Positions 1,951 to 12,893 of a stretch of DNA of 64,000 nt are shown one piece after another. Position 1 is the first letter of the stretch, and each line of letters starts with the position of its first letter. The notes under the pieces are model-generated. The model was not told where the DNA came from and searched no databases. It was given only the letters and a program-made list of their open reading frames with translations. This DNA is from Deltaproteobacteria bacterium (GTDB lineage: Bacteria > Desulfobacterota > Desulfuromonadia > Desulfuromonadales > BM103), in the NCBI GenBank assembly GCA_024279915.1, contig JAJRRB010000039.1, positions 652 through 64,651 on the forward strand. The letters are read 5' to 3'. The translations under genes were made by a program, and so were the position numbers.

Positions 1951-1966
1951 AGCGAAGCTTATATTC

Positions 1967-2093
1967 GCCGCGGATAAGGTCTGATAACATCTGATAAATC
2001 TTAAGACAAAACGCATAAGCTATTGAGTTTTAAGACTTTAACCTTAAGACCTGGCCTTTGACCTATCAGACTTGATCAGATCTTATCGGCGGC
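1967..2093. repeat. 127-nt intergenic element bounded by ~19-nt imperfect inverted termini (GCCGCGGATAAGGTCTGAT ... ATCAGATCTTATCGGCGGC); MITE/REP-like
   Basis: The termini are reverse complements with 2 mismatches. The interior carries three TTAAGAC units and CTGATAA units. Related termini (TTATCNGCGGC / GCCGCAGATAA) recur at 9333-9426 and 10363-10436. Confidence 0.6.
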
Positions 2094-2172
2094 TAAATGA
2101 ATTTTCAGGGCGAAGGGCTGCTTTGGAGGTTAATGGTTTTTGTTTCGCGCAGTCATTTAAGGCCCAGTTTTA

Positions 2173-2201: not shown

Positions 2202-2427
2202 CGCATGTTAATTACTTATATCAGGACTTTCTTGCCGCAAGGCTTGTTTGCTTTTGTTATTGCTAGTTACCGAGGGGGGGCTTCTCGAACCAAAAGATCC
2301 CCCATAAAGAGATACTGACTACACGATTTACATTTAGGGATTAAAGCACCCTGCGTAAGGGCTTGAAGTATATTCACACATTGAATTTAAACGGGATTTA
2401 TAATTTTTTCAAAGGAAGGGAATTGCC

Positions 2428-4641
2428 ATGAAACTGCAAAAGATTCTGGCTGTACTGATGATTTTCTCTCTGTCGCTTGGTTCGCTTGGAACCTTCGCGC
2501 CATCGGTGTCGGCCGCTGATGATCTGACGCCTGAACAGAACCTCACGCAATTGAAAGCTGCGGCCGATGCTGCGAAAGCCGCAAAGTTGGCGGCTCTCTC
2601 TGCGGCACAAGAAGCTGCCAGGATTAAAGCTATTGCTGAAGCTGCTCTCGTAACTCAGCAAGCTGTTCAAGTTGCCGCAGAAGCAGCCGCGCAAGTTGCC
2701 GCTGATGCTGCGCAAGCCGCTGCAGACAAGATTGCCCTGGCAACTACGGATGAAGCAAAGGTTGCAGCCATGAAAGAGGCCTTGAACGCGGAGTCGGCTG
2801 CCAAGGATGCCGCCGTTGAGGTTGCCCAGGCAAACCTGGCTGTCGAGTTGGCCAGCACCTCTGTTGCCGAGGCGACTGTTTCAGTTGTTGCGGCACAAAC
2901 CGAAGTCATGAAAGCCACCACGGTTGAAGCCACGGCGACGGCCAAGGAGACCGCAGCGGTTGCTGTGATCACTTCGAGCACCGCTGCAGGTGATGCCGCT
3001 GCTGCCAAGGCTGCTGCAGATGCGGCCGCTGCCGTCAAGGCTGAGGAAATCGCCAAGCTGGCCGCGATCGAAGCGGCCACAATTGCTGCCGATCTTGCCG
3101 TTGCTGAGAAACTCGCTGAGGCGACCCGGCTGGCTGAGATTGCCGCCGCCGCCGAAGCAACGGAAGCCGAAAAAGCTGCCGCTGATAAAGCCCTTGCCGA
3201 GCAATTTGTTGCTGAAGCTGTCGCTGCCAAAGCTGCTGCGGATGAAGCTGCGGCTGCCAAGGCGATAGAAGTGGCAACCATTGCCGCTGCTCAGGCCGCC
3301 GCCGATCAGGCCGCCGCCGCTCAGGCTGCTGCTGAGGCTGAAGTTGCTGCCCAGGCTGCTGCTCAGGCTGCTGCTGACCGGGAAATTGCCCAGATCGCCG
3401 CTGCGGAAATCGCTGCCGCCGAACAGGCCGCAGCTCAAGTTCGTGCCGAAGCTGCTGCCGCCCAGGCCGCTGCTGCTACTCTGGCTGCTGCCCAGGCCCA
3501 GGCCCAGGCCCAGGCCCAGGCTGCCGCCGCTGAGGCTGCCGCGCAAGCTGCTGCGCAAGCTGCCGCCGATGTAACCGCTGCTGAGTTAGCCACCGCCACT
3601 CAGGCTGCTGCTGAGAGGGCTGCAGCCGAAGCTGCTGTCGCCCAGGCCGCGGCCGTTGCCCAGGTCGTTGCTGATGCCGCCGCCGCCCAGGCCGCCGCTG
3701 ATGCCCAGGCCGCCGCTGATGCCGCTGCTGCTCAGGTCGCCGCTGATGCCGCTGCCGCTCAGGTTGCTGCTGAAGCTGCTGCCATCGCTGAAGCCGCCGC
3801 CGCCCAGGCTGCTGCTGCTGCCCTGGCTGCCGAGCAGGCTGCTGCTGCCGAAGCGGCCGCTGCCAAGGCTGTTCTGGTTGCTGAACTGGCTGCGGCCCAA
3901 GCCGCCGCCGCCGAAGCCGCTGCCGCTGCCGATGCTGCTGCTGCCGCTGCTGCTGCCGAGCAGAGTGCCGCTGAGATTGCCGCCGCCGCTGAAGCTGCTG
4001 CTGCTGCTGAAGCTGCTGCACAGCTTGTCGCTGCTGAAGCTGAAGCTCAGGCCGTTGCTGATGCTGCTGCCGCTCAAGCCCTTGCTGATGCCACTGCTTT
4101 AGCCGCTGCCGAACAGGCTGCTGCCGAAGCTGCCGCTGCCCAGGCCGCTGCCGATGCAGCTGCTGCTGAACTGGCTGCTGCCGAAGCTGCTGCTGCCGAG
4201 CAGGCTGCTGCCGATGCTGCTGCTGCCGAGCTGGCTGCGGCTGAAGCTGCTGCTGCTGCCGCTGCTGCCGAGTTGGCTGCTGCTGAAGCCGCTGCTGCCG
4301 CGATGGCTGCTTCCGAACTGGCTGCTGCCGAGCAGGCTGCTGCTGATGCTGCTGCTGCCGAGCTGGCTGCCGCTGAAGCCGCTGCTGCCGAGCTGGCTGC
4401 TGCTGAAACTGCTGCTGCCGAGTTGGCTGCTGCCGAAGCCGCTGCCGCCCAGGCTGAAGCCGACGCTGCTGCCCTGGTTGCTGCCGAAGCCGCTGCTGCC
4501 GAAGCTGATGCTGCTGCCGTGGCTGCTGCTGAAGCCGCTGCTGCTCAGGCTGCTGCAGATGCCGCCGCTGCCGCTGCTGCTCAGGCTGCTGCCGAAGCCG
4601 CTGCTGCTGAAGATGACGATCCCGCCAGCCCCAGCTCATAA
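2428..4641 (+). CDS. Secreted, extremely alanine-rich acidic low-complexity protein (737 aa), function unknown
   Basis: RBS GGAAGGGA lies upstream of the ATG. The signal peptide is MKLQKILAVLMIFSLSLGSLGTFAPSVSA/AD. The remainder is almost only A, E, Q, D, V, L (K and T only in the first third), with pentad-like units [E/D/Q]-x-A-A-A and 10/20-aa repeats (AAELAAAEAAAAEQAAADAA). It ends EDDDPASPSS and is followed by a 9-bp hairpin. All other frames are open only because of the GCN repetition. Confidence 0.8.
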   Translation: MKLQKILAVLMIFSLSLGSLGTFAPSVSAADDLTPEQNLTQLKAAADAAKAAKLAALSAAQEAARIKAIAEAALVTQQAVQVAAEAAAQVAADAAQAAADKIALATTDEAKVAAMKEALNAESAAKDAAVEVAQANLAVELASTSVAEATVSVVAAQTEVMKATTVEATATAKETAAVAVITSSTAAGDAAAAKAAADAAAAVKAEEIAKLAAIEAATIAADLAVAEKLAEATRLAEIAAAAEATEAEKAAADKALAEQFVAEAVAAKAAADEAAAAKAIEVATIAAAQAAADQAAAAQAAAEAEVAAQAAAQAAADREIAQIAAAEIAAAEQAAAQVRAEAAAAQAAAATLAAAQAQAQAQAQAAAAEAAAQAAAQAAADVTAAELATATQAAAERAAAEAAVAQAAAVAQVVADAAAAQAAADAQAAADAAAAQVAADAAAAQVAAEAAAIAEAAAAQAAAAALAAEQAAAAEAAAAKAVLVAELAAAQAAAAEAAAAADAAAAAAAAEQSAAEIAAAAEAAAAAEAAAQLVAAEAEAQAVADAAAAQALADATALAAAEQAAAEAAAAQAAADAAAAELAAAEAAAAEQAAADAAAAELAAAEAAAAAAAAELAAAEAAAAAMAASELAAAEQAAADAAAAELAAAEAAAAELAAAETAAAELAAAEAAAAQAEADAAALVAAEAAAAEADAAAVAAAEAAAAQAAADAAAAAAAQAAAEAAAAEDDDPASPSS
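3490..3519 (+). repeat. Perfect hexanucleotide microsatellite (GCCCAG)x5 inside the Ala-rich CDS, encoding (AQ)5
   Basis: Direct reading of gcccag repeated five times; the repeat is in-frame. Confidence 0.9.
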
Positions 4642-4667
4642 TTACAGGAAGATTGATATGCGTCTCT

Positions 4668-4693
4668 GTGCCGCGTGTTTCTCAACGCGGCAC
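4668..4693 (+). terminator. Stem-loop after the Ala-rich gene (GTGCCGCGT-8 nt-ACGCGGCAC); possible partial terminator or mRNA stabiliser
   Basis: Perfect 9-bp GC-rich stem 27 nt after the stop codon. There is no clear U-tract, so intrinsic termination is uncertain. Confidence 0.4.
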
Positions 4694-4739
4694 AGTTATG
4701 ATTTGACCTTTTGTTATTTCTCTATAAGGAGGTTTTAAG

Positions 4740-6011
4740 ATGTTTGTACTGACGAGAAGTCTGGCCCTTGCCAGCATTGTCCTTTTCTTTGCTGTTTCTC
4801 TCTGCAGCGCAGCTGATGAATCCGGTCAGCTGTTCGGTTTCGGTCAGGGGTATTTTCACCCCTCAGTGAAGGTCGCAACGGAATACAGTGATAACTACAA
4901 GGCTGTTGCCAGAGGCGAGCAGAGTAACTGGACAACCACGGTCAGCCCGGGGTTCTGGGTTTCTTTGCCTGCGTCTCACAAGAAGGCCTTCAAGATCGAG
5001 TCTTCCAACTCTGCACCGGGCGGCTATGGCATCTCGCGTTTTCGTGACCCGGAGGATAAAGGCTTCTATAGTTCGCTGATGTACAATGCCGATATTGTGC
5101 GTGGCCACGAACACACAGATGATGACCTGACCAAGCACCGTGGCCAGGGCATGCTGCAGTATGCTTTTGCCAGAGGCCTGGCTCTTGAGGTCTCTGACGT
5201 CTACATCAAGAGTGCTGATGAGAACGCTGATACTGTTGGTGTTGATCTGGAAAAGTACAACTCGAACCTAGCCACCCTGATCGCTTTTTACGATGTGAGC
5301 CCCAAGCTCAAGCTGCGGGTTGGCTATGCCAATTTCAACCTCGACTACACCTCGGGCACCGACGTTGATTACAAAGAGCGCGTTGATAATCGGGTCTCTG
5401 CTTATGTGCTCTACCGGGTTCTGCCGAAAACCGAACTGTTTGTTCAGTACGATTATATCGATATCGATTACGATCAGGATATTCTGGCCGATGGTGAGGA
5501 CCAGCATTATTTTGTGGGTGTCAAGTTCGATACCACTGCACGGATCAGCGGCCATGCGAAAATCGGTTACGGTGAATATGTTGCCGATATTAACAACAAT
5601 GATACTTTTGAAGACTTCATCGGCGACGCCTCTTTGAAGTATGCTTTCTGGGGAAATTCGAGCCTGACCCTCACGGCCCAGCAGATTGTTAACGTGACGG
5701 ATGATAATGCGACTCCAAGAAGTTACCAGAACATCCTCCACAGCGAGGTTGGTCTGGCGCTGTCGCATAAGTTTACGAAAAAAATTGGTGCTAAAGTCGG
5801 TGTCGCCTATAAAGAGGACGAGTATCGTTTTGACAGCAGTGACTCAGGTCGTGAAGATGAGGACTGGGTGACTAGGTTCAATCTCGATTACACCATGAAT
5901 AACTGGCTCAAACTGGGTACCAGTTACAGCTATACGGACCGGGATTCCAATGAAAATAATAATGATTATAAGGAAAACCAGCTGACGTTTACTGCTTCGG
6001 CATCGTTTTAA
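4740..6011 (+). CDS. Outer-membrane beta-barrel protein of EPS loci (signal peptide, alternating beta-strand pattern, C-terminal Phe)
   Basis: RBS AGGAGG. Signal peptide MFVLTRSLALASIVLFFAVSLCSA/AD. Many amphipathic Y/F/D-rich strand motifs, and a terminal ...LTFTASASF typical of BAM substrates. Its position directly upstream of the Wza-like gene fits an EPS-locus role. Confidence 0.7.
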   Translation: MFVLTRSLALASIVLFFAVSLCSAADESGQLFGFGQGYFHPSVKVATEYSDNYKAVARGEQSNWTTTVSPGFWVSLPASHKKAFKIESSNSAPGGYGISRFRDPEDKGFYSSLMYNADIVRGHEHTDDDLTKHRGQGMLQYAFARGLALEVSDVYIKSADENADTVGVDLEKYNSNLATLIAFYDVSPKLKLRVGYANFNLDYTSGTDVDYKERVDNRVSAYVLYRVLPKTELFVQYDYIDIDYDQDILADGEDQHYFVGVKFDTTARISGHAKIGYGEYVADINNNDTFEDFIGDASLKYAFWGNSSLTLTAQQIVNVTDDNATPRSYQNILHSEVGLALSHKFTKKIGAKVGVAYKEDEYRFDSSDSGREDEDWVTRFNLDYTMNNWLKLGTSYSYTDRDSNENNNDYKENQLTFTASASF

Positions 6012-6020
6012 AGTAACCAC

Positions 6021-6101
6021 AGGGACTGTCCCCGGGGTTAAGGGGGCTGTCCCATACCTGTAAATGAAAATCTGGGACAGGCACCTTCGGAGCCAGTCCC
6101 T
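6021..6101. repeat. Nested GGGAC-type dyads between the OMP and Wza genes
   Basis: AGGGACTG (6021-28) pairs with CAGTCCCT (6094-6101). CTGTCCCA (6047-54) pairs with TGGGACAG (6073-80). GGGACTGTCCC (6022-32) is itself a dyad. Confidence 0.6.
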
Positions 6102-6120
6102 AATGAGAGTTGTAAGTAAT

Positions 6121-6921
6121 ATGAAAACCGTTGTTCTGATGCTGCTCTGCTGTCTTTCTGTTGTTCTCCCATCCTGGGCCGATACCGCCCAGGATGATTA
6201 TTTGATCGGTGCGGATGCCGTTCTGAAAATTACAGTTTACGATCATACGGATCTGGATGTTGTCTCCCGCGTCAGCGGTGACGGGAGCGTCCAGTTTCCG
6301 CTTCTGGGCTCTGTAAACCTTGGTGGCTTAACCCTTAAAGAGGCGATCGAGGAGATCCAGAAGCAGCTGATGGATGGCTACCTGGTGAATCCGCAGGTGT
6401 CGATCTTTGTCGAAGAGTATCGCAGCAAGAAGGTGATGGTGATCGGTCATGTCGCTGAGCCCGGTGTTCTGGAGTTGAGCGGACCGACCCATCTTCTCGA
6501 AGTGCTGACCATGGTCGGTGGCTTACGTGAAAATGCCGGAGATGTGGCGACGATTAAACGAACCTTGTCCGGCGCTAAACAAGGCCAGAAGATTTTAAGG
6601 ATTGACCTTAAGCGTTTGCTGGAGACCGGTGATGAAAAACTGAATATCCAGATCATGGATAAAGACAGCGTGTTTATCGCCAAGGCCGGCATGGTTTACG
6701 TGACCGGCGAAGTCGGCAAACCGGATGCCTACAAGTACGAAGAAGGCACCACGGTCCTCAAGGCCATCAGCATGGCGGGCGGCTTCACCCAGATCGCCGC
6801 AAAAAACAAGATCCGTATTGTCCGCATCGTCGATGGCAAGGAACAGATCATGGAGAAGGTGTCTCTGCAGGAAGAGGTGAAATCGGGCGATGTGGTTGTT
6901 GTGCCGGAGAGTTATTTTTAA
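6121..6921 (+). CDS. Periplasmic polysaccharide export protein (Wza/ExoF/EpsA-like, Poly_export + SLBB domains)
   Basis: Signal peptide MKTVVLMLLCCLSVVLPSWA. The motifs YLIGADAVLKITVY...GDGSVQFPLLGSVNLGGLTLKEA and the C-terminal ...SGDVVVVPESYF are typical of this family. The ORF is open from 6064, but that extension lies in the repeat region. Confidence 0.85.
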   Translation: MKTVVLMLLCCLSVVLPSWADTAQDDYLIGADAVLKITVYDHTDLDVVSRVSGDGSVQFPLLGSVNLGGLTLKEAIEEIQKQLMDGYLVNPQVSIFVEEYRSKKVMVIGHVAEPGVLELSGPTHLLEVLTMVGGLRENAGDVATIKRTLSGAKQGQKILRIDLKRLLETGDEKLNIQIMDKDSVFIAKAGMVYVTGEVGKPDAYKYEEGTTVLKAISMAGGFTQIAAKNKIRIVRIVDGKEQIMEKVSLQEEVKSGDVVVVPESYF

Positions 6922-7024
6922 GCGACGAAACGGTCGCCATCTCAGCCATGATCGGTGGGCTGATAAAATCGAAAAAGAACTACATAAATAACAGTAGTAA
7001 GAAATAAGATCATGCTTTTCGCGC

Positions 7025-7048
7025 CCCTCGTCCCGCGTCCCGCGTTCC
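7025..7048. repeat. Heptamer array (CCCCTCG TCCCGCG TCCCGCG TTCCGTT), GGGACGY family in reverse orientation
   Basis: Direct reading; two perfect adjacent TCCCGCG units. Confidence 0.7.
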
Positions 7049-7103
7049 GTTGCATTTAAATATTTCCTCCTTTGCAACTAAACTGAAAACTGGATTGAAA
7101 CAT

Positions 7104-9200
7104 ATGAATCAAGAAGAATCCCAGCTACGAACCGAAGAAGTCCATTTACGCGATTACCTGCACGTGATCAACAAGCGTCGCAGTCTGGTGCTGGCTGTCT
7201 TTGCGGTAATCTTCGTGATGGTGGCTCTCTATACCTTTGCCAGTGTGCCGCTCTATCGTGGTACGACCAAGGTTTTGATTGAGAAGGCGTCTTCTTCGGC
7301 GCTGACAGGGAATTCGCCTTCGCGGATTTATGATCCGGAATTTTATGAGACCCAGTTCCAGTTGATCAAAAGCCGCGCGGTGGCCAAACGGGTGGTGGCA
7401 AGCCACGACCTGGTCGACAATTTCGCCAGTTATCGCGGCGGCAATGACGATGAGGGGCTGTTGTCGAATGTGGCCGGCTGGTTTTCGGCTGCGAAAGAGC
7501 TGATCAAAGGCCTGCTTGGCACGACACAACCGGTGGGTGAAGAGCTGGCGTCGGATCAACTGACAAAGACCGCGGACCTTCTCAACGCGGATATCGAGGT
7601 CAAACCGTTCAAGAACAGCCGCATCGTTACGATCAGCTACCTGGCGCCCACCCCCGAGTTCTCCGCCATGATCGCCAATGCCACCGCCAAGGCGTATATC
7701 CAGGAAACGATGGAGATGAAGCTCGACTCCACCCGGACCACCCTGGAGTGGATGACCAGAAAGGCAACCGAAGAGGGTGTGAAACTGCAAGCGACTGAAC
7801 AGGCGCTGCAGAACTACATGGTGGCCAACGACATCATCACCCTGCAAAACCGCATGTCGGTGACCCCGGAACAGCTTTCCCAGATCAGCACGCAGCTGGT
7901 GATCGCCGAGTCGAAGCGCAAACAGCTTGAGTCTCTCTACACCAAAGTGCGCAGCGTGGCGAATGACCACAAGAAGGCGGAGACGATCCCGGCGATTGTC
8001 GCCGATCCGGCGCTGCAAATGATCCGTGGCCAGATTCTTCAGGCGGAACAGGATCTGCGCGAGCTGTCCAGTACCTACCTGTCCAAACACCCGGGGATGA
8101 AGAAGGCCAAGGCCGATCTCGAAATCCTCTCTGAAAAACGCAATCAGGAGATCACGAGGATTATCGAATCGATTCACAATGAATACGAGTTTGCCATATC
8201 GGATGAAGAGAATCTGCATGCGCAGATGGAACGGACCAAGGCCCAGGCCCAGGGTTTGAGCGAACGTTTCATTCAGTATGGTGCCTTAAAGCGCGAGGTT
8301 GATACCAACCGCACCATGTATGACGCGCTGCTGATGAAGATCAAGGAGCAGAGCATTACCGAGGAGACGCACCCGGTTTCGCTGTGGATCGTCGAAGAAG
8401 CTATTGTTCCTGAAGCCCCGGTCAAGCCGAACAAGAAGAAGAACCTGCTGCTCGGACTGATTGTCGGTTTGATGGCGGGGATCGGCATGGCCTTTTTCGT
8501 CGAATACCTCGACAACACGATCAAGTACCCGGAAGAGACGGAGAAAGCTCTCGGCCTGCCAGTGTTAGGTCTGGTTTCGCTGTGGAAGGAAAAAGATACG
8601 TCGATTGAGCAGGCGGTTGAGAAGTCGCCGCGCAGTGCCGTTGCGGAAAGCTACAAAGCTCTGCGGACCTCGCTGATGCTCGCCTCGGCAGATGGTGCTC
8701 CCGGCAGAATCCTGGTGACCAGCGCCGCGGCCGCGGCAGGTAAGACGACAACCGCCTTAAACCTTGCTTTCGCCCTGGCCCAGGCGGGCAAAAGGGTGCT
8801 TCTGATCGATGCTGATATGCGCAAGCCGCGCATCCACAAAGCCTTGAAGATGACCAACACTAACGGCTTGTCCAACTACCTCTCCGGCGGCAAAAGCAGC
8901 ATCCTGAAAAAAAGTACGCACGAGAATCTCGATGTGATCACCTCGGGGCCGATTCCGCCGAACCCTTCGGAACTGCTCTCTTCTCGCCATATGCAGCAGC
9001 TGCTCGATAGCCTCAGCGCGAACTATGACGTGATCATCTGCGATTCGCCGCCCCTGCTTTCGGTGGCTGATGCGCGGATCATCACCCGGGTTTGCGACGG
9101 CACGATTCTGGTGGTGCGCGCCAAGCAGACGACTTTCGATCTGGCCCGCAAAGCGACCCGACAGCTCACCTCGATAATGCACCGATCCTCGGGATGGTGA
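7104..9200 (+). CDS. Wzc/GumC-like polysaccharide co-polymerase fused to BY-kinase (tyrosine autokinase); reading frame breaks near 9168-9172
   Basis: ATG at 7104. An N-terminal TM segment is followed by a long coiled-coil Wzz-type periplasmic region and a second TM segment. Next come Walker A (SAAAAAGKTTTALNLA), A' (VLLIDADMRKP) and B (DVIICDSPPLL). This frame ends abnormally (..RQLTSIMHRSSGW*). Confidence 0.85.
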   Translation: MNQEESQLRTEEVHLRDYLHVINKRRSLVLAVFAVIFVMVALYTFASVPLYRGTTKVLIEKASSSALTGNSPSRIYDPEFYETQFQLIKSRAVAKRVVASHDLVDNFASYRGGNDDEGLLSNVAGWFSAAKELIKGLLGTTQPVGEELASDQLTKTADLLNADIEVKPFKNSRIVTISYLAPTPEFSAMIANATAKAYIQETMEMKLDSTRTTLEWMTRKATEEGVKLQATEQALQNYMVANDIITLQNRMSVTPEQLSQISTQLVIAESKRKQLESLYTKVRSVANDHKKAETIPAIVADPALQMIRGQILQAEQDLRELSSTYLSKHPGMKKAKADLEILSEKRNQEITRIIESIHNEYEFAISDEENLHAQMERTKAQAQGLSERFIQYGALKREVDTNRTMYDALLMKIKEQSITEETHPVSLWIVEEAIVPEAPVKPNKKKNLLLGLIVGLMAGIGMAFFVEYLDNTIKYPEETEKALGLPVLGLVSLWKEKDTSIEQAVEKSPRSAVAESYKALRTSLMLASADGAPGRILVTSAAAAAGKTTTALNLAFALAQAGKRVLLIDADMRKPRIHKALKMTNTNGLSNYLSGGKSSILKKSTHENLDVITSGPIPPNPSELLSSRHMQQLLDSLSANYDVIICDSPPLLSVADARIITRVCDGTILVVRAKQTTFDLARKATRQLTSIMHRSSGW

Positions 9201-9295: not shown

Positions 9296-9474
9296 AAACT
9301 GAAAACTGGAAAAAACCAAAGACTAATTTATCGGCCGCAGATAAAATCTGATAAATTCGGATCATTGCAAAAGCAAAGGCTTTATAGCTTGTAGACATCA
9401 GATGTTATCCGATTGCATCTGCGGCTAAAATTGTTTTTGCTGCTGCCTTTAACTTACTGCTTACAGCTGGGTTT
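9292..9474. repeat. Composite intergenic repeat: CTGAAAA x2-3 heptamers, a TTATCNGCGGC-type inverted pair, then CTTAC(A/T)G heptamers
   Basis: CTGAAAA CTGAAAA CTGGAAA at 9292-9312 (contains the stop of the kinase tail). GGCCGCAGATAAAATCTGAT at 9333-52 is opposed by ATCAGATGTTATCC..TCTGCGGCT at 9397-9426. AACTTAC TGCTTAC AGCTGGG lies just before the phosphatase ATG. Confidence 0.65.
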
Positions 9475-10173
9475 ATGATCGATCTCCACTGCCATATCCT
9501 CTGGGACATCGATGACGGACCAAGTGATTTCGACGGTTCGATGGCGATGGCGCGTCTGGCTGCTGCGGATGGAACTCGCCAGCTGGTCGCGACACCCCAT
9601 GTGCAAGACATGCTGCACTCGCCTGAACTGATCGCTGAGAAGGTTGCACGGCTCAACCAGGCGTTGCGCGATGCCGAAATCGACCTGGAGATCCTTTCTG
9701 GTGGCGACAACCTCTACAACCTGGGTGTTGAGAATCTGGCCCGCTACTCGATTAACGGCACTCGCTACGTGCTGGTGGAATTCCCCCACACCCATCTGCC
9801 GGCCCAGGCTGGCGACACTCTCTTCGCTGCCTTAAATCACGGTCTGGTGCCGATTATCACCCATCCGGAACGCAACCCCTCTATCGTACAGAACCCGAAG
9901 CTGCTCTTCGAACTGGTTGAAAATGGCGCACTGGTGCAACTGACCGCCGATAGCCTGACCGGTGGTTTCGGTCCTGCCGCCAAGGCGTGTGCGCGTTACC
10001 TGTTAAAGAAAAAGATGGTCCATTTTCTCGCCTCGGACGGCCACTCCTCCAAACACCGCCCACCGACCATGTCCGCCGGATTTAAGGCTGCGTCGAAGAT
10101 TGTTGGTAAGGATGCTGCGCGTATGCTGGTGTTTGATAATCCGGCGAAAGTCGTACAGGGGATTGAGCTGTAA
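9475..10173 (+). CDS. PHP-family protein-tyrosine phosphatase (CpsB/CapC/YwqE type)
   Basis: MIDLHCHILWDIDDGP..., ATPH, VLVEFPH, ITHPERN, ASDGHS. This is the metal-binding His/Asp pattern of CpsB-type phosphatases, and the gene is adjacent to the BY-kinase. Confidence 0.9.
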   Translation: MIDLHCHILWDIDDGPSDFDGSMAMARLAAADGTRQLVATPHVQDMLHSPELIAEKVARLNQALRDAEIDLEILSGGDNLYNLGVENLARYSINGTRYVLVEFPHTHLPAQAGDTLFAALNHGLVPIITHPERNPSIVQNPKLLFELVENGALVQLTADSLTGGFGPAAKACARYLLKKKMVHFLASDGHSSKHRPPTMSAGFKAASKIVGKDAARMLVFDNPAKVVQGIEL

Positions 10174-10440
10174 GCTATAAGCTGCAAATCAAAAGCATCC
10201 TCACGCCCGTTCGTTCACTCACTCAGAGTACGCAGAGACTGCAGAGAGGGTATAAAGCTTTATGGTTTTAACCCAAAGAATTAGGTTTTAAGATTTTGAC
10301 TTCTCTGCTGTCTCTGCGTCTCTGCGAGAGTATGCTTTTGATTTGAGTTTATCAGATGTTATCAGATTTTATCCGCGGCTAAATGATTTGTAGTTTTTGA
10401 CCTTTAATACATGAGTTTTACTGGCCGCAGATAATATTTT
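10171..10440. repeat. Composite intergenic repeat including a ~161-nt imperfect palindrome (10185-10345) and a TTATCCGCGGC/GCCGCAGATAA pair
   Basis: TAAGCTA TAAGCTG heptamers contain the stop codon. CAAATCAAAAGCAT (10185-98) is perfectly complementary to ATGCTTTTGATTTG (10332-45). The arms are built from GCAGAGA / TCTCTGC heptamers. TTATCCGCGGC is at 10367-77 and GGCCGCAGATAA at ~10422-33. Confidence 0.7.
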
Positions 10441-10507: not shown

Positions 10508-10542
10508 CTTACAGTCTTAAAGCTCTACAGCTTACAGCTTGA
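10508..10542. repeat. Heptamer array CTTACAG TCTTAAA GCTCTAC AGCTTAC AGCTTGA
   Basis: Direct reading. It abuts and overlaps the possible TTG start (10539) of the next ORF. Confidence 0.65.
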
Positions 10543-10547
10543 ATCCT

Positions 10548-12092
10548 ATGCCCTTTTATCTCCTAATATTTACGCTGATTTTTGCCCCACTCGCCTATGG
10601 TACCACCCGGCCGCTCGCCATGACGATCGTGCAGGCAGTGATCCTTTTCGCGTTACTGTGGGTTTGCGTCGACGCGGCCTTAAAGCGGCGCAAGTTCTAT
10701 CGTCCTCCCGGCCTCTTGCCGCTCGGCCTGCTGGGTGGCCTGATGCTGTTGCAGATGATTCCCCTGCCTGCCGGGCTGTTGCAGGTCATCTCGCCGGTGA
10801 CCTGGCAACGCTATATGGACACGGTCTGGCTGCTGCAGCCGGACCTGTGGATGCCGTTGTCGTTCACCCTGCAGCGCACCGTGACAGCTTTTTGCTATTT
10901 CTTTGTCTGTGTGGCCTTTTATATACTCGCCACCCAGTGCCTGGCCGACAGCGCGCGACTGCGCAAGAGTGTGCGGATTGTTACCGTTTTTGCCGGACTC
11001 TACGCCCTGGTCTCGATCCTCGAGGCGTTGCTGCCGAATGGTCGCATCCTCTGGCTGCTGCAACCGTGGCCTGAGTATGCTGGAGAGTCCTTTGGCAGTT
11101 ATATCAACGGCAACCACTTCGCCGGCCTGATGGGTATGCTGTTGCCGCTCGTGGTGATCCTCTTCCTGGTGGACAAACCGCTGGCGCAGTACGGCGGCTG
11201 GAAGGATCGTCTGGTTGATTTCTGCAGCGACCCGCGCCTGGGCGCACATCTGCTGACCGGCTTTGCAGCACTGCTGGTGGCGGCTTCGATCTTTTTATCG
11301 CTCTCACGTGGCGGTATTTTGAGCACCCTCGGCGCCATGCTGGTGCTCTGCCTGTTGCTGGCCTGGCGTAGGCATTACCGCCGGCAGGCCTTGATCCTGA
11401 TTGGTTTCATCGTCATCCTGTTCTTCTTTATCGGTATCTTCGGCTGGACGAATATCTTTGACGCCTTTGCCAGAATCCGTAATCTACAGGGAGATATTGC
11501 CGATGCACGCCTGGTTTTCTGGCGCGACATCCTGACGCTGGTAAAGGATTTCCCTCTTTTCGGGACAGGCTTCGGCAGTTTTGTCGATAGCTACGGTGGT
11601 TACCAGACCATTTTCATGGGTGAGCGTATAGCGGTTTTTCATGCCCATAATGATTACCTGGAGTTGGCTGCTGAGGGCGGCTTAACGGGCCTGCTGCTGG
11701 CTGTCTGGGCCGCTTGGTGCGTACTCCGGCAAAGCTGGAAGGCTTTCGGTCGCCGACGCAAGCCATTTGCTATTACGCTTTACCTCGGTTGCCTGGCCGG
11801 GATCAGCGCGTTACTGTTGCATAGCCTGACCGACTTCAATCTGCATATCGGCGCCAACGGCCTCTATTTTACTTTCCTCGTTGCTCTGCTCGTTGCTGCC
11901 GCTTCCACCAGTTCACGCAGCGGCTCGCACTCGGAGCTGCCAAAAGTATCTCGTGGTCGGGTCAGTTTGGCTTTGCCTCTGATCGTGATCGGGCTGTGCG
12001 GTTCTTTACTCTTTAATGTTGGTGGTCTCGTCGCCGAGGCCACTTTAGTCCCAGTGGTGGGGGCCAACCTTGCCCAGATAGAAAGCCCGTAG
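10548..12092 (+). CDS. O-antigen ligase/polymerase family membrane protein (Wzy_C domain)
   Basis: More than 10 predicted TM helices. The motif HAHNDYLELAAEGGLTGLLL is typical of Wzy_C/O-antigen ligase proteins. ATG at 10548 (the ORF is open from TTG 10539). It ends at TAG 12090-92, in the same frame as the following TPR ORF. Confidence 0.8.
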   Translation: MPFYLLIFTLIFAPLAYGTTRPLAMTIVQAVILFALLWVCVDAALKRRKFYRPPGLLPLGLLGGLMLLQMIPLPAGLLQVISPVTWQRYMDTVWLLQPDLWMPLSFTLQRTVTAFCYFFVCVAFYILATQCLADSARLRKSVRIVTVFAGLYALVSILEALLPNGRILWLLQPWPEYAGESFGSYINGNHFAGLMGMLLPLVVILFLVDKPLAQYGGWKDRLVDFCSDPRLGAHLLTGFAALLVAASIFLSLSRGGILSTLGAMLVLCLLLAWRRHYRRQALILIGFIVILFFFIGIFGWTNIFDAFARIRNLQGDIADARLVFWRDILTLVKDFPLFGTGFGSFVDSYGGYQTIFMGERIAVFHAHNDYLELAAEGGLTGLLLAVWAAWCVLRQSWKAFGRRRKPFAITLYLGCLAGISALLLHSLTDFNLHIGANGLYFTFLVALLVAAASTSSRSGSHSELPKVSRGRVSLALPLIVIGLCGSLLFNVGGLVAEATLVPVVGANLAQIESP

Positions 12093-12098
12093 CGGGAC

Positions 12099-12893
12099 GT
12101 GGTGCTGCAAAGCGCCCGGCAAGCAGCTGTTTGGGCGCCGCTGGATAGCTCAAATCGCTATCTCGAGGCGAAAGTTCTGCAGGCAATGGGACAGGGTGAA
12201 GAGGCCTTTCTGGTCTTTGGTCGTGTTCTGCAATTGCGGCCGATCAATGCACTCTACCTGCAGCGTGCCGCAGGAGCTGCGCAAGATTTGGATAGAAGGG
12301 CACTTGCCGGTTCATTGTTCAAGTCCGGAACTGTTCTCGATCGGGCCGATCCGCGACGGAGCAAGCCTTACGCGCGTTGGCTGATTCGTCAGCAGCAGGA
12401 GGAGCAAGCCTTTGTCGAGATCAAACGGGCCCTGGAACTGGATCCGCGCCAGACCAGAAGCTTTGTTGACCTGATGCTTCTCAACGGTGTGCCATCAATT
12501 ATGATGGCGCAGGCGCTTCCGGAGAGCGCTTATGCCTGGTTGGCTTACGCACATTACCTGGTTGAGGTGAAACGCTTTAGTGCCGCGGAACGCGCTTTTC
12601 GCAAAGCCATGCTGTTGATGCCGAAGGAGGAAAGACCCACTTATCGAGCTCATTGGGCTTATTACAAGTTCCTCGCAAAGCGTGAACGGTTTGAAGAGGC
12701 GGTTGCGGTGATCCAGAAGGGCATTGAGTTGTTTCCCGATCATGTCGGGTTGCACAGCACGGCCGGCCGACTTTATGAACGGCAGCAGATCAATTATCGT
12801 GCTATTGAAGAGTATCGTCAGGCGCTGCTGCTTAATCCGAAGTTGGAGTGGGTGAGGAAGAGGTTGGAGCGGTTGGAGGGAGGACGGTTGTAA
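12099..12893 (+). CDS. TPR-repeat protein
   Basis: 264 aa with repeated A-x3-[FY]-x2-A-[LI]-x-L-x-P patterns (e.g. EEAFLVFGRVLQLRPIN; EQAFVEIKRALELDPRQ; RAIEEYRQALLLNPKL). GTG start, in frame with the upstream ORF across a single TAG. Confidence 0.7.
   Translation: MVLQSARQAAVWAPLDSSNRYLEAKVLQAMGQGEEAFLVFGRVLQLRPINALYLQRAAGAAQDLDRRALAGSLFKSGTVLDRADPRRSKPYARWLIRQQQEEQAFVEIKRALELDPRQTRSFVDLMLLNGVPSIMMAQALPESAYAWLAYAHYLVEVKRFSAAERAFRKAMLLMPKEERPTYRAHWAYYKFLAKRERFEEAVAVIQKGIELFPDHVGLHSTAGRLYERQQINYRAIEEYRQALLLNPKLEWVRKRLERLEGGRL

What the first reader, a model, noticed from the sequence alone, without database searches (positions are those of the whole stretch)
2428..4641. 737-aa secreted poly-alanine/acidic protein encoded as the first gene of the EPS export block
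After a clean Sec signal peptide, the protein is, by eye, well over half Ala. The rest is almost only Glu, Gln, Asp, Val and Leu. Past the signal peptide there is no Cys or Trp and no internal Pro, almost no Gly and only a stray Phe, and no basic residues in the C-terminal two-thirds. The C-terminal half shows a 5-residue periodicity ([E/D/Q]-x-A-A-A) nested in 10- and 20-residue repeats (AAELAAAEAAAAEQAAADAA). It is followed by a hairpin and then immediately by an OM beta-barrel, Wza and Wzc, which suggests a protein component of the extracellular matrix exported or anchored with the polysaccharide. A very long polyanionic helix or fibre could act as a cation/metal-binding scaffold. The pentad spacing also leaves open a pentapeptide-repeat-like beta-helix. 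I know of no characterised family with this composition.
Basis: partly seen in the sequence, partly recalled or inferred. Interest (0 to 1): 0.78.

Follow-up and report, generated by a model that had tools for sequence, protein, structure and literature searches.

The report
Secreted poly-alanine acidic helical protein
A real, conserved gene at the head of a polysaccharide-export operon in a Desulfuromonadales bacterium encodes a secreted 708-residue protein that is 57% alanine and strongly acidic. It is most likely a long, negatively charged alpha-helical rod that works with the exported sugar polymer, it matches no described protein family, and current protein databases largely miss it.

Summary
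Window 2428-4641 (+) is the only open frame, with a good RBS, a Sec signal peptide and a downstream hairpin. The mature protein is 708 aa, 57% Ala, net charge -78, with no Cys/Trp/His/Tyr.

It is a real gene. Three orthologues were found by synteny in metagenome contigs. The complete one (727 aa, ~70% identical, collinear) differs mainly at third codon positions (124/140/374) and gives dN/dS 0.21.

The acidic residues follow an alpha-helix rule. D/E pairs at i+3 and i+4 are absent (0/0, ~8.8 expected), depleted at i+1, i+7 and i+11, and enriched at i+5 and i+10. There is no hydrophobic seam. This fits a uniformly charged rod, not a coiled coil or a pentapeptide beta-helix.

In related Desulfuromonadales loci the same slot, just upstream of an 18-strand porin, short OPX, PCP, phosphatase and Wzy_C-TPR gene, always holds a signal-peptide, Ala-rich, low-complexity protein. 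Their bodies are unrelated, but 11 of 14 share a C-terminal Ser-Pro tail.

The closest precedent is E. coli GfcA/YjbE, by position and architecture only. Function and final location remain inferred. Verdict: a new variant of a poorly understood kind, of moderately high interest.

The parts
1964..2096 (.). Imperfect 33-nt inverted repeat built from 10-nt-phased [T/G]C[T/G]GATAA words. It lies between the CapD-like gene and the target and may be a terminator, a REP-like element or a regulatory element.
   Evidence: The arms at 1964-1996 and 2064-2096 are 82% complementary. The word array occurs 11 times in the window against 0.47 expected, and 10 of those hits are in intergenic gaps of this EPS block. 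It gave only a spurious sub-threshold Rfam hit.
2357..2427 (+). Conserved promoter-proximal leader. It includes a -35-like TTGAAG (2363-2368), a -10-like TTTAAA (2386-2391) and the RBS GGAAGGG (2414-2420).
   Evidence: This is the only block of the upstream region that aligns well with the L007 orthologous locus. The promoter assignment is inference; the sigma-70 scan found no + strand site upstream of the gene.
2428..4641 (+). Coding sequence of the 737-aa poly-Ala acidic protein, stop codon included.
   Evidence: Purifying selection against the L007 orthologue is shown.
2428..2514 (+). Sec signal peptide, residues 1-29, with predicted cleavage VSA|AD. There is no lipobox Cys.
   Evidence: The n/h/c regions can be read directly. 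It contains the only KD-19 window above 1.6 (2.07 at residues 6-24). The region is conserved in L007.
2515..3327 (+). N-terminal region, residues 30-300. It is 40% Ala, contains Lys and has more complex sequence than the rest.
   Evidence: Composition by segment is. It holds 19 E/K pairs at i+3/i+4 against 1 in the rest of the protein.
2728..3027 (+). Best-conserved block, residues 101-200. It is rich in Ser/Thr/Val, with TVSVVAAQ.EVMKATTVEATATAKETAA invariant between orthologues.
   Evidence: dN/dS is 0.10 here against 0.21 overall. It holds 18 of the 43 Ser+Thr residues, and the alignment is. AF2 confidence drops below 50 across residues 157-206.
3328..4617 (+). Polyanionic Ala-rich helix region, residues 301-730. 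It is 62-67% Ala with acidic residues spaced to avoid same-face positions.
   Evidence: D/E pairs: 0 at i+3 and 0 at i+4 (~8.8 expected; 0 of 2000 shuffles that low); i+5 is 22 against 8.8 and i+10 is 18 against 8.5. There is no amphipathic moment at 98-103 degrees. AF2 predicts helix throughout.
3928..4617 (+). Pentad/decad repeat zone, residues 501-730, built on (AAELAAAEAA)-type units with no basic residues.
   Evidence: It is the only part that draws hits in the exhaustive HMMER search, all of them to unrelated proteins with pentad linkers.
4609..4638 (+). C-terminal tail EDDDPASPSS: an acidic patch followed by a Ser-Pro motif.
   Evidence: D730, D731, P732, A733, S734 and P735 are invariant in L007. 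An SP dipeptide falls within the last 10 residues in 11 of 14 slot proteins, against a per-protein chance of 0-6.6% and 2 of 37 other window genes.
4666..4695 (+). GC-rich hairpin followed by a U-rich tract, between the target and the OMP gene. It is a putative attenuator or mRNA-stabilising element.
   Evidence: Comparable hairpins occur in L008, L003, L009, L010 and L011. They are weak or absent in L007 and L001.
4740..6011 (+). Outer-membrane beta-barrel (BBP2_2 family, 18 strands, Wzp/EpsL-like), the immediate downstream partner.
   Evidence: Pfam BBP2_2 at 8.8e-22. EpsL and TIGR03016 match below their cut-offs. The AF2 model has pLDDT 74, pTM 0.68 and 18 strands. Foldseek gives TM ~0.5 to the OprD/Occ family and AlgE.
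6064..6921 (+). Short OPX protein (Poly_export plus 2 SLBB domains, 285 aa, no Wza_C hit), class-3-like.
   Evidence: The OPX classes are defined in PMC9603273.
7104..9200 (+). PCP / tyrosine autokinase (Wzc-like).
   Evidence: The 698-aa product starting at 7104 is the form held in the public collection.
9475..10173 (+). CpsB/CapC-type PHP tyrosine phosphatase.
   Evidence: Pfam CpsB_CapC at 1.1e-51.
10539..12893 (+). Wzy_C-TPR membrane protein (ligase or polymerase family). In this window it is split by an in-frame TAG at 12090-12092.
   Evidence: Wzy_C at 4.4e-22 and TPR hits. It is a single 777-778-aa ORF in L001, L020 and L021, and orthologues have Glu/Asp at the stop position.

Best explanation
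The gene encodes a Sec-exported structural or accessory protein of the polysaccharide-export module. It is an enlarged, polyanionic counterpart of the small low-complexity 'leader' proteins (GfcA/YjbE type) that head some OPX/beta-barrel export operons.

Proposed mechanism:
- The signal peptide is cleaved at VSA|AD, leaving a 64-kDa mature chain (pI ~4, net charge -78).
- That chain folds almost entirely into long alpha-helices. Ala supplies the helix propensity.
- The ~100 acidic residues sit mostly five apart and never three or four apart. Like charges therefore never stack on one helix face and no hydrophobic seam forms.
- The result is a stiff, soluble, uniformly negative rod or set of rods, up to ~100 nm if fully extended.
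- The conserved Ser/Thr/Val-rich block (residues 101-200) and the conserved acidic Ser-Pro C-terminal tail are the likely contact or attachment points to the export machinery or the polymer.
- A hairpin after the gene probably lets it be expressed in excess over the downstream 18-strand porin, short OPX, PCP and phosphatase.
- It most likely ends up at the cell surface or in the capsule/EPS layer, as a charged, hydrated protein component.

Shown here: a real gene under purifying selection, the signal peptide, the composition, the helix-compatible charge pattern and the conserved slot. Inferred: helical rod geometry, excess expression, physical association with the EPS machinery and extracellular location.
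For: Gene reality:
- It is the only open frame and has the best codon score.
- The complete orthologue L007:861-3044 is 727 aa, ~70% identical and collinear.
- Differences fall 124/140/374 by codon position; dN/dS is 0.21 overall and 0.10 in residues 101-200.
- 173 of 334 conserved Ala columns use different codons.
- Two further partial orthologues exist, in L008 and L010.

Helix:
- AF2 predicts helix for almost the whole mature chain.
- D/E pairs are 0/0 at i+3 and i+4 (expected 8.7-8.8; 0 of 2000 shuffles), depleted at i+1, i+7 and i+11, and enriched at i+5 and i+10.
- The i+3/i+4 avoidance persists in L007 (1/1 against 9.4-9.5 expected), although its pentad signal is weaker.
- The hydrophobic moment at 98-103 degrees is insignificant in every segment.
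- There is no TM segment in the mature chain.
- Pentad arrays of the same type, (AAAEK)n and (AAELAAAEAA)n, recur as internal linkers in unrelated multidomain proteins.

Link to the export module:
- In 13 related loci (14 with this window) the gene directly upstream of the BBP2_2 porin always encodes a signal-peptide, Ala-rich (15-62%), low-complexity protein with few Cys or aromatic residues. Most are acidic.
- 11 of 14 have SP within the last 10 residues.
- The spacer to the porin gene is 91-118 nt in 12 of 14.

Surface exposure (indirect):
- Flanking genes are 74-88% identical between loci, but the porin is only 58-68% and the slot gene is replaced outright.

Precedent:
- E. coli gfcA and yjbE are first genes with a signal peptide, ~20% Ala, no Cys, few or no aromatic residues, and hydroxyl-rich C-termini. 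Each is followed by a 106-113-nt spacer with a hairpin before the next export gene.
Against: - There is no transcript, peptide or localisation evidence.
- Only a Sec signal is present, so the default location is the periplasm. No mechanism for crossing the outer membrane is shown.
- AF2 confidence is low (mean pLDDT 55, single sequence), and Ala-rich input is biased towards helix.
- The hairpin is weak or absent in the closest complete orthologous locus L007 and in L001.
- The long and short slot proteins share no detectable homology beyond the signal peptide, so pooling them rests on position and the tail motif only.
- The L008 orthologue is ~137 residues shorter over the comparable region, so length is not fixed.
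- GfcA/YjbE themselves have no established function (PMC8592465).
Confidence: 0.5

Rival explanations
1. Periplasmic accessory. The protein stays in the periplasm as a spacer, scaffold or polyanionic 'lubricant'. It would bridge or insulate the PCP, the short OPX (which cannot span the outer membrane) and the porin, or keep the nascent polymer from sticking to the envelope.
For: Only a Sec signal is present and there is no lipobox, TM segment or sorting signal. The OPX is the short class-3-like type that needs a separate porin, so additional periplasmic parts are plausible. A rod of tens of nanometres matches periplasmic dimensions if it folds into helical hairpins, as the AF2 helix breaks suggest.
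Against: The slot gene and porin evolve much faster than the periplasmic and inner-membrane components, and the slot gene is swapped for unrelated sequences between close relatives (CapD 88% against slot unrelated in L006). That is unusual for a part that must dock precisely onto conserved machinery. Length differs among orthologues.
Confidence: 0.2
2. Glycan carrier. The Ser/Thr of the conserved C-terminal SP tail (and possibly the S/T-rich block at residues 101-200) is O-glycosylated with the locus polysaccharide by the conserved Wzy_C-TPR protein. The TPR domain would recognise the C-terminal peptide, and the protein-polysaccharide conjugate would leave through the OPX/18-strand porin.
For: The SP tail occurs in 11 of 14 otherwise unrelated slot proteins. 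A Wzy_C-TPR gene is a constant member of the module. Wzy_C is the domain shared by O-antigen ligases and PglL/TfpO O-oligosaccharyltransferases, and TfpO-type enzymes modify a C-terminal Ser of pilin (established knowledge, not tested here). The same idea was proposed for GfcA (PMC8592465). GfcA and YjbE also end in Ser/Thr-rich tails.
Against: The Wzy_C-TPR proteins show no PglL_A domain and only far sub-threshold matches to PEP_O_lig_1 (29.7 bits against a cut-off of 188) and TfpM (19.3 against 600). They could simply be the Wzy polymerase. In this window the gene carries an in-frame TAG. Three slot proteins lack the SP tail. No glycosylation data exist.
Confidence: 0.15
3. Neighbour only. 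This would be a real secreted low-complexity protein whose function is unrelated to the polysaccharide, such as a stress, desiccation or cation buffer, or a nitrogen-poor filler protein, and which merely sits in a recombination-prone intergenic slot.
For: The slot is a hot spot: a toxin-antitoxin pair is inserted there in L001, unrelated genes occupy it in different lineages, and repeat arrays flank it.
Against: Orientation, the ~100-nt spacing to the porin gene, the signal peptide and the SP tail are kept across at least seven unrelated body types and several genera, including Trichloromonas and Geothermobacter. The E. coli gfcA/yjbE operons show the same layout.
Confidence: 0.1
4. Pentapeptide-repeat-like right-handed beta-helix formed by the C-terminal pentads, with 20 residues per coil.
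For: There is 5-residue periodicity. AELAA superficially fits the A(D/N)LXX consensus. Some pentapeptide-repeat proteins are acidic DNA mimics (established knowledge).
Against: No Pentapeptide HMM hit appears even at E<=10. The residue after the acid (the pentad centre) is Ala in 24 of 39 cases and L/I in only 8, so the core would be unfilled. The lag-20 signal is weak. Acidic spacing also avoids i+7 and i+11, and in L007 the i+3/i+4 avoidance survives where the pentad register is weak, which is an alpha-helical rule. AF2 gives no strands.
Confidence: 0.02
5. Not a gene. This would be a GC-rich simple-repeat region in which a long open frame arises by chance, or the true gene would lie in another frame or on the other strand.
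For: GCN-rich repeats leave long shadow ORFs on both strands, for example 387 aa on the minus strand and Ala-rich antisense frames. The exact protein is absent from the 15-billion-protein collection. At the orthologous L010 locus the public gene call used a different, Leu-rich frame.
Against: A 737-codon frame with an RBS and a signal peptide is open only in +0. Orthologues keep this frame with a third-position excess of substitutions and dN/dS 0.21. None of the alternative-frame ORFs is in the collection either, and neither is the called L007 protein, so absence there is uninformative.
Confidence: 0.01

Closest known systems
E. coli GfcA (YmcD) and YjbE (Pfam PF11106), the first genes of the gfcABCDE-etp-etk and yjbEFGH polysaccharide operons
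   Same: Each is the first gene of an operon that continues with an outer-membrane beta-barrel and, for gfc, an OPX, a phosphatase and a tyrosine kinase. Each has a Sec-type signal peptide and a low-complexity mature chain with ~20% Ala, no Cys and few or no aromatic residues. Each ends in a hydroxyl-rich C-terminal tail. Each is followed by a 106-113-nt spacer with a hairpin before the next gene, against 91-118 nt here. Function is unknown, and a role as a glycosylated cargo of the barrel has been speculated (PMC8592465).
   Different: They are 80-101 aa against 737 aa here. They are Thr/Ser/Gly-rich and uncharged (net -1 and 0) against Ala/Glu/Gln-rich with net -78. They show no pentad periodicity. 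There is no sequence match: PF11106 hits YjbE at 5e-33 but not GfcA, the target or any slot protein. GfcB and GfcC lie between GfcA and the barrel, and the GfcD barrel is much larger.
(EAAAK)n-type rigid helical linkers and natural (AAAEK)n, (AAADK)n or (AAELAAAEAA)n pentad arrays in multidomain proteins
   Same: They show the same Ala-rich pentad with one acidic residue per five. These arrays are the only significant hits of the exhaustive HMMER search (E down to 8e-18, all to residues ~500-730). One of them, P0019, carries the identical K-free AAELAAAEAAAA unit. They are regarded as stable monomeric alpha-helical spacers (established knowledge).
   Different: In those proteins the arrays are linkers of 100-450 residues between globular domains, and usually carry a Lys that can pair with Glu. 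Here the array is the bulk of a protein with no globular domain, has no basic residue over 257 residues, and is secreted on its own. The similarity is in composition and repeat, not homology.
ER/K single alpha-helix (SAH) domains
   Same: They are long, non-amphipathic, highly charged helices that are stable as monomers and lack a hydrophobic seam.
   Different: SAH stability comes from dense E-K/R i,i+4 salt bridges. Residues 301-737 here have a single such pair. Stability must instead come from Ala propensity, with like charges kept apart.
Pentapeptide-repeat proteins (Rfr fold, e.g. MfpA/Qnr)
   Same: Five-residue repeat and acidic surface.
   Different: There is no HMM match, the pentad centre is mostly Ala, and the charge spacing follows an alpha-helix-specific rule.
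Class 3 OPX plus Wzp 18-strand porin export modules (Myxococcus WzaX/WzpX and others; PMC9603273). This describes the context, not the protein.
   Same: The downstream genes are a 285-aa OPX with Poly_export plus 2 SLBB and no Wza_C hit, next to an 18-strand barrel.
   Different: No low-complexity leader protein turned up in that paper in a term search of its text. The barrel family here is BBP2_2/EpsL-like, and membership of the Wzp group was judged only by strand number and pairing.

Membership tests
YjbE/GfcA leader proteins of EPS export operons | Sequence match to Pfam PF11106 (YjbE) | tested here: not met
   No Pfam family appears at E<=10 for the target, or at E<=0.1 for L007 and the short slot proteins. 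The positive control YjbE scores 5e-33, while GfcA itself is not hit.
YjbE/GfcA leader proteins of EPS export operons | First gene of the export block, same strand, followed by an OM beta-barrel and export proteins | tested here: met
   Searches show this for the window. Searches show it for 13 related loci. Searches give the E. coli layout.
YjbE/GfcA leader proteins of EPS export operons | Sec signal peptide plus a low-complexity, Cys- and aromatic-poor mature chain with a hydroxyl-rich C-terminus | tested here: met
YjbE/GfcA leader proteins of EPS export operons | Small size (80-101 aa), Thr/Ser/Gly-rich, near-neutral | tested here: not met
   The target is 737 aa, 57% Ala and 5.8% Ser+Thr, with net charge -78. 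GfcA and YjbE are described.
Pentapeptide-repeat proteins | Match to the Pentapeptide HMMs / A(D/N)LXX consensus with L/F at the pentad centre | tested here: not met
   No hit at E<=10. The centre residue is Ala in 24 of 39 cases and L/I in 8 of 39.
Pentapeptide-repeat proteins | Beta-helical fold | tested here: inconclusive
   AF2 predicts only helix, but at low confidence. The charge-spacing statistics favour an alpha-helix. An experiment is needed.
ER/K single alpha-helix domains | Dense alternating E and K/R with i,i+4 pairs | tested here: not met
   There is one opposite-charge i+3/i+4 pair in residues 301-737 and 19 in residues 31-300. No basic residue follows K480.
Canonical coiled coil | Heptad or hendecad hydrophobic seam | tested here: not met
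   Hydrophobic moments at 102.9, 100 and 98.2 degrees are 0.01-0.12 in all segments. Every segment's maximum moment falls outside 98-103 degrees (at 71-80, 121 or 146-148 degrees); where it exceeds shuffles it is mostly at the pentad harmonics near 72 and 144 degrees.
PEP-CTERM / exosortase substrates | C-terminal PEP motif, TM helix and basic cluster | tested here: not met
   The protein ends ...AAAAEDDDPASPSS, with no C-terminal hydrophobic segment. The neighbours match EpsL/EpsE/EpsF-type models only below their cut-offs.
Bacterial lipoproteins | Lipobox with Cys at +1 | tested here: not met
   There is no Cys in the protein.
Substrates of PglL/TfpO-type O-oligosaccharyltransferases (novel-case reading) | A cognate O-OTase with Wzy_C plus PglL_A-type features encoded nearby | tested here: inconclusive
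   A Wzy_C domain is present (4.4e-22) and fused to TPR in orthologues. No PglL_A domain is found. The TfpM and PEP_O_lig_1 matches are far below their cut-offs.
Substrates of PglL/TfpO-type O-oligosaccharyltransferases (novel-case reading) | A glycan attached to Ser/Thr in an Ala/Ser/Pro-rich or C-terminal segment | not testable with these tools
   This needs mass spectrometry. Only the candidate acceptor tail is shown.
Class 3 OPX + Wzp porin module (context) | OPX without an OM-spanning Wza_C segment, paired with an adjacent 18-strand barrel | tested here: met
   The OPX is 285 aa with Poly_export and two SLBB domains only. The barrel model has 18 strands at pLDDT 74. The definition comes from PMC9603273.

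The most novel reading that the evidence does not exclude
The slot proteins are protein acceptors of the polysaccharide, a bacterial 'proteoglycan' capsule. The conserved C-terminal acidic Ser-Pro tail would be recognised by the TPR domain of the module's Wzy_C-TPR enzyme. That enzyme would ligate the Und-PP-linked polymer to the tail. The conjugate would then be threaded out through the short OPX and the 18-strand porin. The 100-nm-scale polyanionic poly-Ala helix would serve as a rigid, charged stalk that holds the glycan away from the cell or anchors it. The outright replacement of the protein body between close relatives would then be surface-antigen-like diversification.
Probability: 0.12. 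Interest if true: 0.88.

Novelty: new variant of a known kind. Interest (0 to 1): 0.6.

Why it matters
Wzx/Wzy-type export modules with a short OPX and a separate porin were recognised only recently. The role of the small low-complexity 'first gene' proteins (GfcA, YjbE) has been open for about two decades.

This locus family shows that such a slot is conserved well outside the enterobacteria. It carries a shared C-terminal Ser-Pro tail and can hold anything from a 160-aa Ala/Thr/Val-rich protein to a 737-aa, 57%-Ala polyanion under clear purifying selection. That gives concrete, testable handles on what these proteins do: the tail, the Ser/Thr block and the Wzy_C-TPR partner.

The protein is also a natural experiment in helix design. 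It appears to be a K-free, uniformly negative, non-amphipathic helix hundreds of residues long, whose charge spacing obeys an i+3/i+4/i+7/i+11 avoidance rule.

There is a practical lesson too. The family is essentially invisible to protein databases and gene callers. One orthologue was called in the wrong frame and the others are missing from a 15-billion-protein collection, so similar proteins are probably under-counted.

Tried and rejected
- Pfam, NCBIfam, PDB sequence search and Foldseek on the target gave nothing.
- A word-indexed search with the N-terminal 300 aa gave no hit.
- The exhaustive HMMER search of 1.84 billion representatives gave 105 hits, all to the C-terminal repeat zone of unrelated multidomain proteins. 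I rejected these as homologues.
- These negative searches are uninformative, because even the called L007 orthologue is absent from the collection.
- The genome-contig scan with the single OMP found nothing. With the OMP alignment it found only two MAGs.
- The metagenome scan with the conserved N-terminal block found nothing. With the OMP alignment it gave five loci and no new long orthologue.
- A riboswitch or known RNA in the 477-nt leader: none. The only sub-threshold hit (MIR7993) is an artefact of a palindrome.
- Homology between long and short slot proteins: BLASTP gave E 0.27 and 14, and hhalign aligned the signal peptide only.
- The molecular-ruler idea (fixed length): window and L007 differ by only 10 aa, but L008 is ~137 aa shorter over the comparable region, so I dropped it.
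- The coiled-coil reading was rejected for lack of any heptad or hendecad moment.
- The sigma-70 consensus scan found no + strand promoter upstream. The conserved -35-like hexamer is inference only.
- Exact look-up of alternative-frame ORFs, to see how the source record was annotated, found none.
- Literature search: no paper combines 'alanine-rich' with Wza and Wzc.
- The source organism could not be named. Housekeeping proteins are singletons from an NCBI contig of 135,922 bp. The nearest named relatives by PCP identity are Trichloromonas sp. (70%), Geothermobacter (61%) and Desulfuromonas versatilis (55%).

Full report
**1. The observation**

Window 2428-4641 (+) is a 737-codon ORF. It is preceded by GGAAGGG seven bases upstream of the ATG. 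An 11-bp GC-rich hairpin follows at 4666-4695. It is the only open frame across the region and has by far the best codon log-odds against 21 other genes of the window: +0.69 per codon, against <=0.10 in the other frames, which carry 4-49 stops.

The product is 55% Ala (57% once residues 1-29 are removed), with E 9.6, Q 6.6, V 5.2, L 5.0 and D 4.2%. It has no Cys, Trp, His or Tyr. The mature chain has one Gly and one Phe, and Pro only at 35, 732 and 735. Its net charge is -78, its pI 4.05 and its mass 64 kDa.

Residues 1-29 form a textbook Sec signal: MKLQK, an 18-residue hydrophobic core, then VSA|AD. They contain the only Kyte-Doolittle window above 1.6.

The pentad periodicity is real. In residues 500-730 the E/D/Q autocorrelation gives z=5.2 at lag 5 and 4.1 at lag 10, and the DNA shows 15-nt and 30-nt tandem periods.

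Eight basic residues lie in the C-terminal two-thirds, the last being K480, so only the final 257 residues are free of them. The 20-residue super-repeat is weak.

**2. It is a real gene**

Direct homology searches failed. Pfam, NCBIfam and the PDB gave nothing. A word-indexed search with the N-terminal 300 aa gave nothing. An exhaustive HMMER search of 1.84 billion representatives returned 105 hits, all confined to residues ~500-730. These were unrelated multidomain proteins that use (AAAEK)n, (AAADK)n or (AAELAAAEAA)n arrays as linkers.

I therefore used the adjacent porin as an anchor. It has 15 homologues at 50-68% identity, and I read their contigs.

- L007, a JGI metagenome contig, has a complete 727-aa, 54%-Ala orthologue directly upstream of the porin.
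- L008 holds a 5'-truncated orthologue of at least 440 aa with 62% Ala.
- L010 holds a C-terminal fragment. There the public gene call took a Leu-rich wrong frame.

Window and L007 align collinearly at ~70% identity with only 1-3-residue gaps. Nucleotide differences fall 124/140/374 by codon position. Nei-Gojobori dS is 1.05 and dN 0.22, so dN/dS is 0.21 overall and 0.10 in residues 101-200. In 173 of the 334 columns where both proteins have Ala, the codon differs. So the amino-acid sequence, poly-Ala included, is under purifying selection in this frame.

Neither the target nor the called L007 protein is present in the 15-billion-protein collection. The negative protein searches therefore say little about how common the family is.

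**3. Structure**

AF2 on the single sequence predicts helix for nearly the whole mature chain, at low confidence (mean pLDDT 55). Foldseek finds nothing.

Stronger evidence comes from the sequence itself. In residues 300-730, which hold 62 D/E, acidic pairs are absent at i+3 and i+4 (0 and 0; 8.7 and 8.8 expected; 0 of 2000 shuffles that low). They are depleted at i+1, i+7 and i+11, and enriched at i+5 (22 against 8.8) and i+10 (18 against 8.5).

The avoided spacings i+3, i+4, i+7 and i+11 are the same-face positions of an alpha-helix. In L007 the i+3/i+4 avoidance is kept (1 and 1 against 9.4-9.5) although its pentad signal is much weaker. The rule is therefore 'keep like charges off the same helix face', and the pentad is one way of meeting it.

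No segment has a significant hydrophobic moment at 98-103 degrees. The maxima lie outside that range (near 72, 121 or 146 degrees), and those that exceed shuffles are mostly at the pentad harmonics near 72 and 144 degrees. So there is no coiled-coil seam.

Opposite-charge i+3/i+4 pairs number 19 in residues 31-300 but only one afterwards. The C-terminal 430 residues are thus not an ER/K-type single alpha-helix either. They are a K-free, uniformly negative, Ala-stabilised helix.

The pentapeptide beta-helix alternative fails on several counts. There is no HMM hit at E<=10. The pentad centre is Ala in 24 of 39 cases. The helix-specific spacing rule argues against it as well.

If fully extended, 708 residues would span ~106 nm. 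AF2 breaks the chain into helices of 20-190 residues, so a bundle or hairpin arrangement cannot be excluded.

**4. Context**

The window is chromosomal DNA of a poorly sampled Desulfuromonadales lineage. GlnA and LeuRS are singletons at 90% identity. The PCP is 70% identical to Trichloromonas sp., 61% to Geothermobacter and 55% to Desulfuromonas versatilis.

Gene order is as follows:
- a CapD-like dehydratase, then a 477-nt AT-rich gap;
- the target, then a 98-nt spacer with the hairpin;
- a BBP2_2 porin, modelled with 18 strands at pLDDT 74, with TM ~0.5 to the OprD/Occ family and AlgE;
- a 285-aa OPX with Poly_export plus two SLBB domains and no Wza_C;
- a PCP/tyrosine kinase;
- a CpsB phosphatase;
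- a Wzy_C-TPR protein;
- GDP-sugar enzymes.

The short OPX next to an 18-strand barrel is the class 3 OPX + Wzp arrangement described in PMC9603273.

**5. The slot is conserved and its content is not**

In all 13 related loci, the gene directly upstream of the porin encodes a protein with a signal peptide, 15-62% Ala and few Cys or aromatic residues. Most are acidic. Besides the three long orthologues (four long versions with the window) there are at least six other body types:
- 255-261 aa with (EAPVE)n or (PEPEPQ)n repeats;
- 216 aa;
- 191-208 aa with VTAAVTAAPEQASAI repeats;
- 307 aa in a Trichloromonas MAG;
- 160 aa;
- 168 aa in cultured Geothermobacter ehrlichii.

They show no detectable homology to the target beyond the signal peptide (BLASTP E 0.27 and 14; hhalign aligns residues 1-25 only). 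No Pfam or NCBIfam family reaches its curated cut-off for any of them; most have no hit at all and a few have only weak sub-threshold hits.

Yet 11 of the 14 carry Ser-Pro within their last ten residues: DPASPSS, DPASPT, ESVSPSS, CDSPP, TSVSPAV..., RSVPSPTC, KPGSPV, LSVSPSN, KSVSPAS and STVSPSAVQ. The per-protein chance is 0-6.6%, and only 2 of 37 other genes of the window have it. The spacer to the porin gene is 91-118 nt in 12 of 14 loci.

Between loci the flanking genes are 74-88% identical. The porin is only 58-68% identical, and the slot gene can be replaced outright: L006 has a CapD gene 88% identical to the window's but an unrelated 216-aa slot protein. Fast evolution of the porin and the slot protein, with conserved inner components, is what would be expected if both face the outside. 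This is an inference.

A hairpin follows the slot gene in most loci. It is strong in the window and L008, present in L003, L009, L010 and L011, and weak in L007 and L001.

**6. Closest precedent**

E. coli gfcA and yjbE are the first genes of polysaccharide operons that continue with a barrel and, for gfc, with an OPX, a phosphatase and a kinase. I extracted them from K-12.

Both have a Sec signal, ~20% Ala, no Cys, few or no aromatic residues, and Ser/Thr-rich C-termini. Each is followed by a 106-113-nt spacer with a hairpin.

However, they are 80-101 aa, Thr/Ser/Gly-rich and uncharged. PF11106 recognises YjbE (5e-33) but not GfcA, the target or any slot protein.

Their function is unknown. 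[quoted passage not shown] I therefore treat the target as working like a GfcA/YjbE-type leader protein, but not as a member of that family.

**7. Most likely mechanism, and rivals**

Best explanation (confidence about 0.5). This is a Sec-exported, abundant, polyanionic alpha-helical rod that is a functional partner of the export module and ends up with the polymer at the cell surface. The conserved Ser/Thr/Val block (residues 101-200) and the acidic Ser-Pro tail would be the interaction or attachment sites.

Within that statement the confidence differs by part. 'Real secreted gene' is near certain. 'Mostly helical, non-amphipathic polyanion' is probable (~0.75). 'Surface or matrix location and EPS partnership' is inferred (~0.5).

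Rivals:
- a purely periplasmic spacer or scaffold (0.2);
- a glycan carrier, modified on the tail by the Wzy_C-TPR enzyme (0.15; it overlaps with the main model and is the most novel reading);
- an unrelated neighbour in a recombination-prone slot (0.1);
- a pentapeptide beta-helix (0.02);
- not a gene (0.01).

The Wzy_C-TPR protein cannot be assigned as ligase or polymerase. It has no PglL_A domain and only far sub-threshold PEP_O_lig_1 and TfpM matches. In this window it carries an in-frame TAG.

**8. Novelty and verdict**

No paper in the searchable library combines an alanine-rich protein with Wza and Wzc, and no family model or solved structure matches. The kind, a low-complexity secreted leader protein of an OPX/barrel export operon, is known but not understood.

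What is new is this variant: 737 aa, 57% Ala, net -78, with helix-rule charge spacing. Also new is the recognition of a conserved slot with a shared Ser-Pro tail across Desulfuromonadales.

I rate it a new variant of a known kind, with interest 0.6. The decisive data (expression, localisation, CD/SAXS, glycoproteomics, deletion phenotypes) are experimental and are listed under next steps.

Noticed in passing
window 1970-2090, 9337-9412, 10339-10376; L003 3834-3851 and 11679-11696; L021 5048, 5166, 5274, 8868, 12013: There are 10-nt-phased arrays of [T/G]C[T/G]GATAA words, often as inverted pairs that can form long hairpins. They occur 11 times in the window against 0.47 expected, and 10 of the 11 are in three intergenic gaps of the EPS block. 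Related GCGGATAA words occur 10 times (0.6 expected), all on the operon strand, in intergenic gaps of the Geothermobacter ehrlichii locus. They may be REP-like elements, RNA structures or phased binding sites of a locus regulator. A faint resemblance to the ops element was not tested.
   Followed up: partly
window 12090-12092 (within 10539-12893): The Wzy_C-TPR gene is a single 777-778-aa ORF in L001, L020 and L021. In this window it is split by an in-frame TAG where orthologues have Glu/Asp. This could be a nonsense mutation, a sequencing error or two separate products.
   Followed up: partly
L010 165-449 versus frame +1 of L010 2-418; window 2428-4641; L007 861-3044: The public gene call at L010 is a 94-aa Leu/Pro-rich ORF in the wrong frame of an Ala-rich orthologue. 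The target and the called 727-aa L007 protein are both absent from the 15-billion-protein collection. Extreme poly-Ala genes seem to be systematically lost or mis-called, and contigs tend to break at them.
   Followed up: yes
L001 3823-4608, L003 5124-5909, L016 137-904, L006 1498-2148, L009 1881-2456, L011 242-868, L013 1246-2169, L020 394-876, L021 5339-5845: A set of short (160-307 aa) secreted Ala/Thr/Val-rich proteins occupies the same slot. No Pfam or NCBIfam family reaches its cut-off for any of them. They contain repeated 'xxVVxxAxxxGxxxx'-like helix-turn units, some have (EAPVE)n or (PEPEPQ)n tracts, and most have a Ser-Pro C-terminal tail.
   Followed up: partly
window 4740-6011 compared with 6064-9200, against L001, L003 and L006: The porin is markedly more diverged between loci (58-68%) than the OPX (74-83%), the PCP (79-82%) and CapD (82-88%). 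The boundary of the variable segment seems to lie between CapD and the OPX, as in serotype-like cassettes.
   Followed up: partly
L001 2742-3427; L006 4600-4965; L019 2388-2729: Small mobile-looking genes are inserted in intergenic gaps of the module. A Gp49/HTH_37 toxin-antitoxin pair sits between CapD and the slot gene in L001. A 23S_rRNA_IVP-family gene sits after the OPX in L006 and after the PCP in L019.
   Followed up: no
L007 530-566; L020 1-120: Short tandem repeats lie upstream of the slot gene in other loci: (CGTGGGA)n in L007 and a repeated ~21-nt unit in L020. The region upstream of the slot gene is repeat-rich and poorly conserved, apart from the last ~90 nt.
   Followed up: no
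window 2428-4641: Ala codon choice is skewed to GCT (51%) and GCC (37%), with GCG and GCA at 12% together against 36% in 21 other genes. GAT, GTT and GAA are also favoured, and GC3 (0.47) is below the genome's (0.56). This may reflect translational selection or avoidance of GC-rich DNA or RNA structure in a repeat-rich gene.
   Followed up: no
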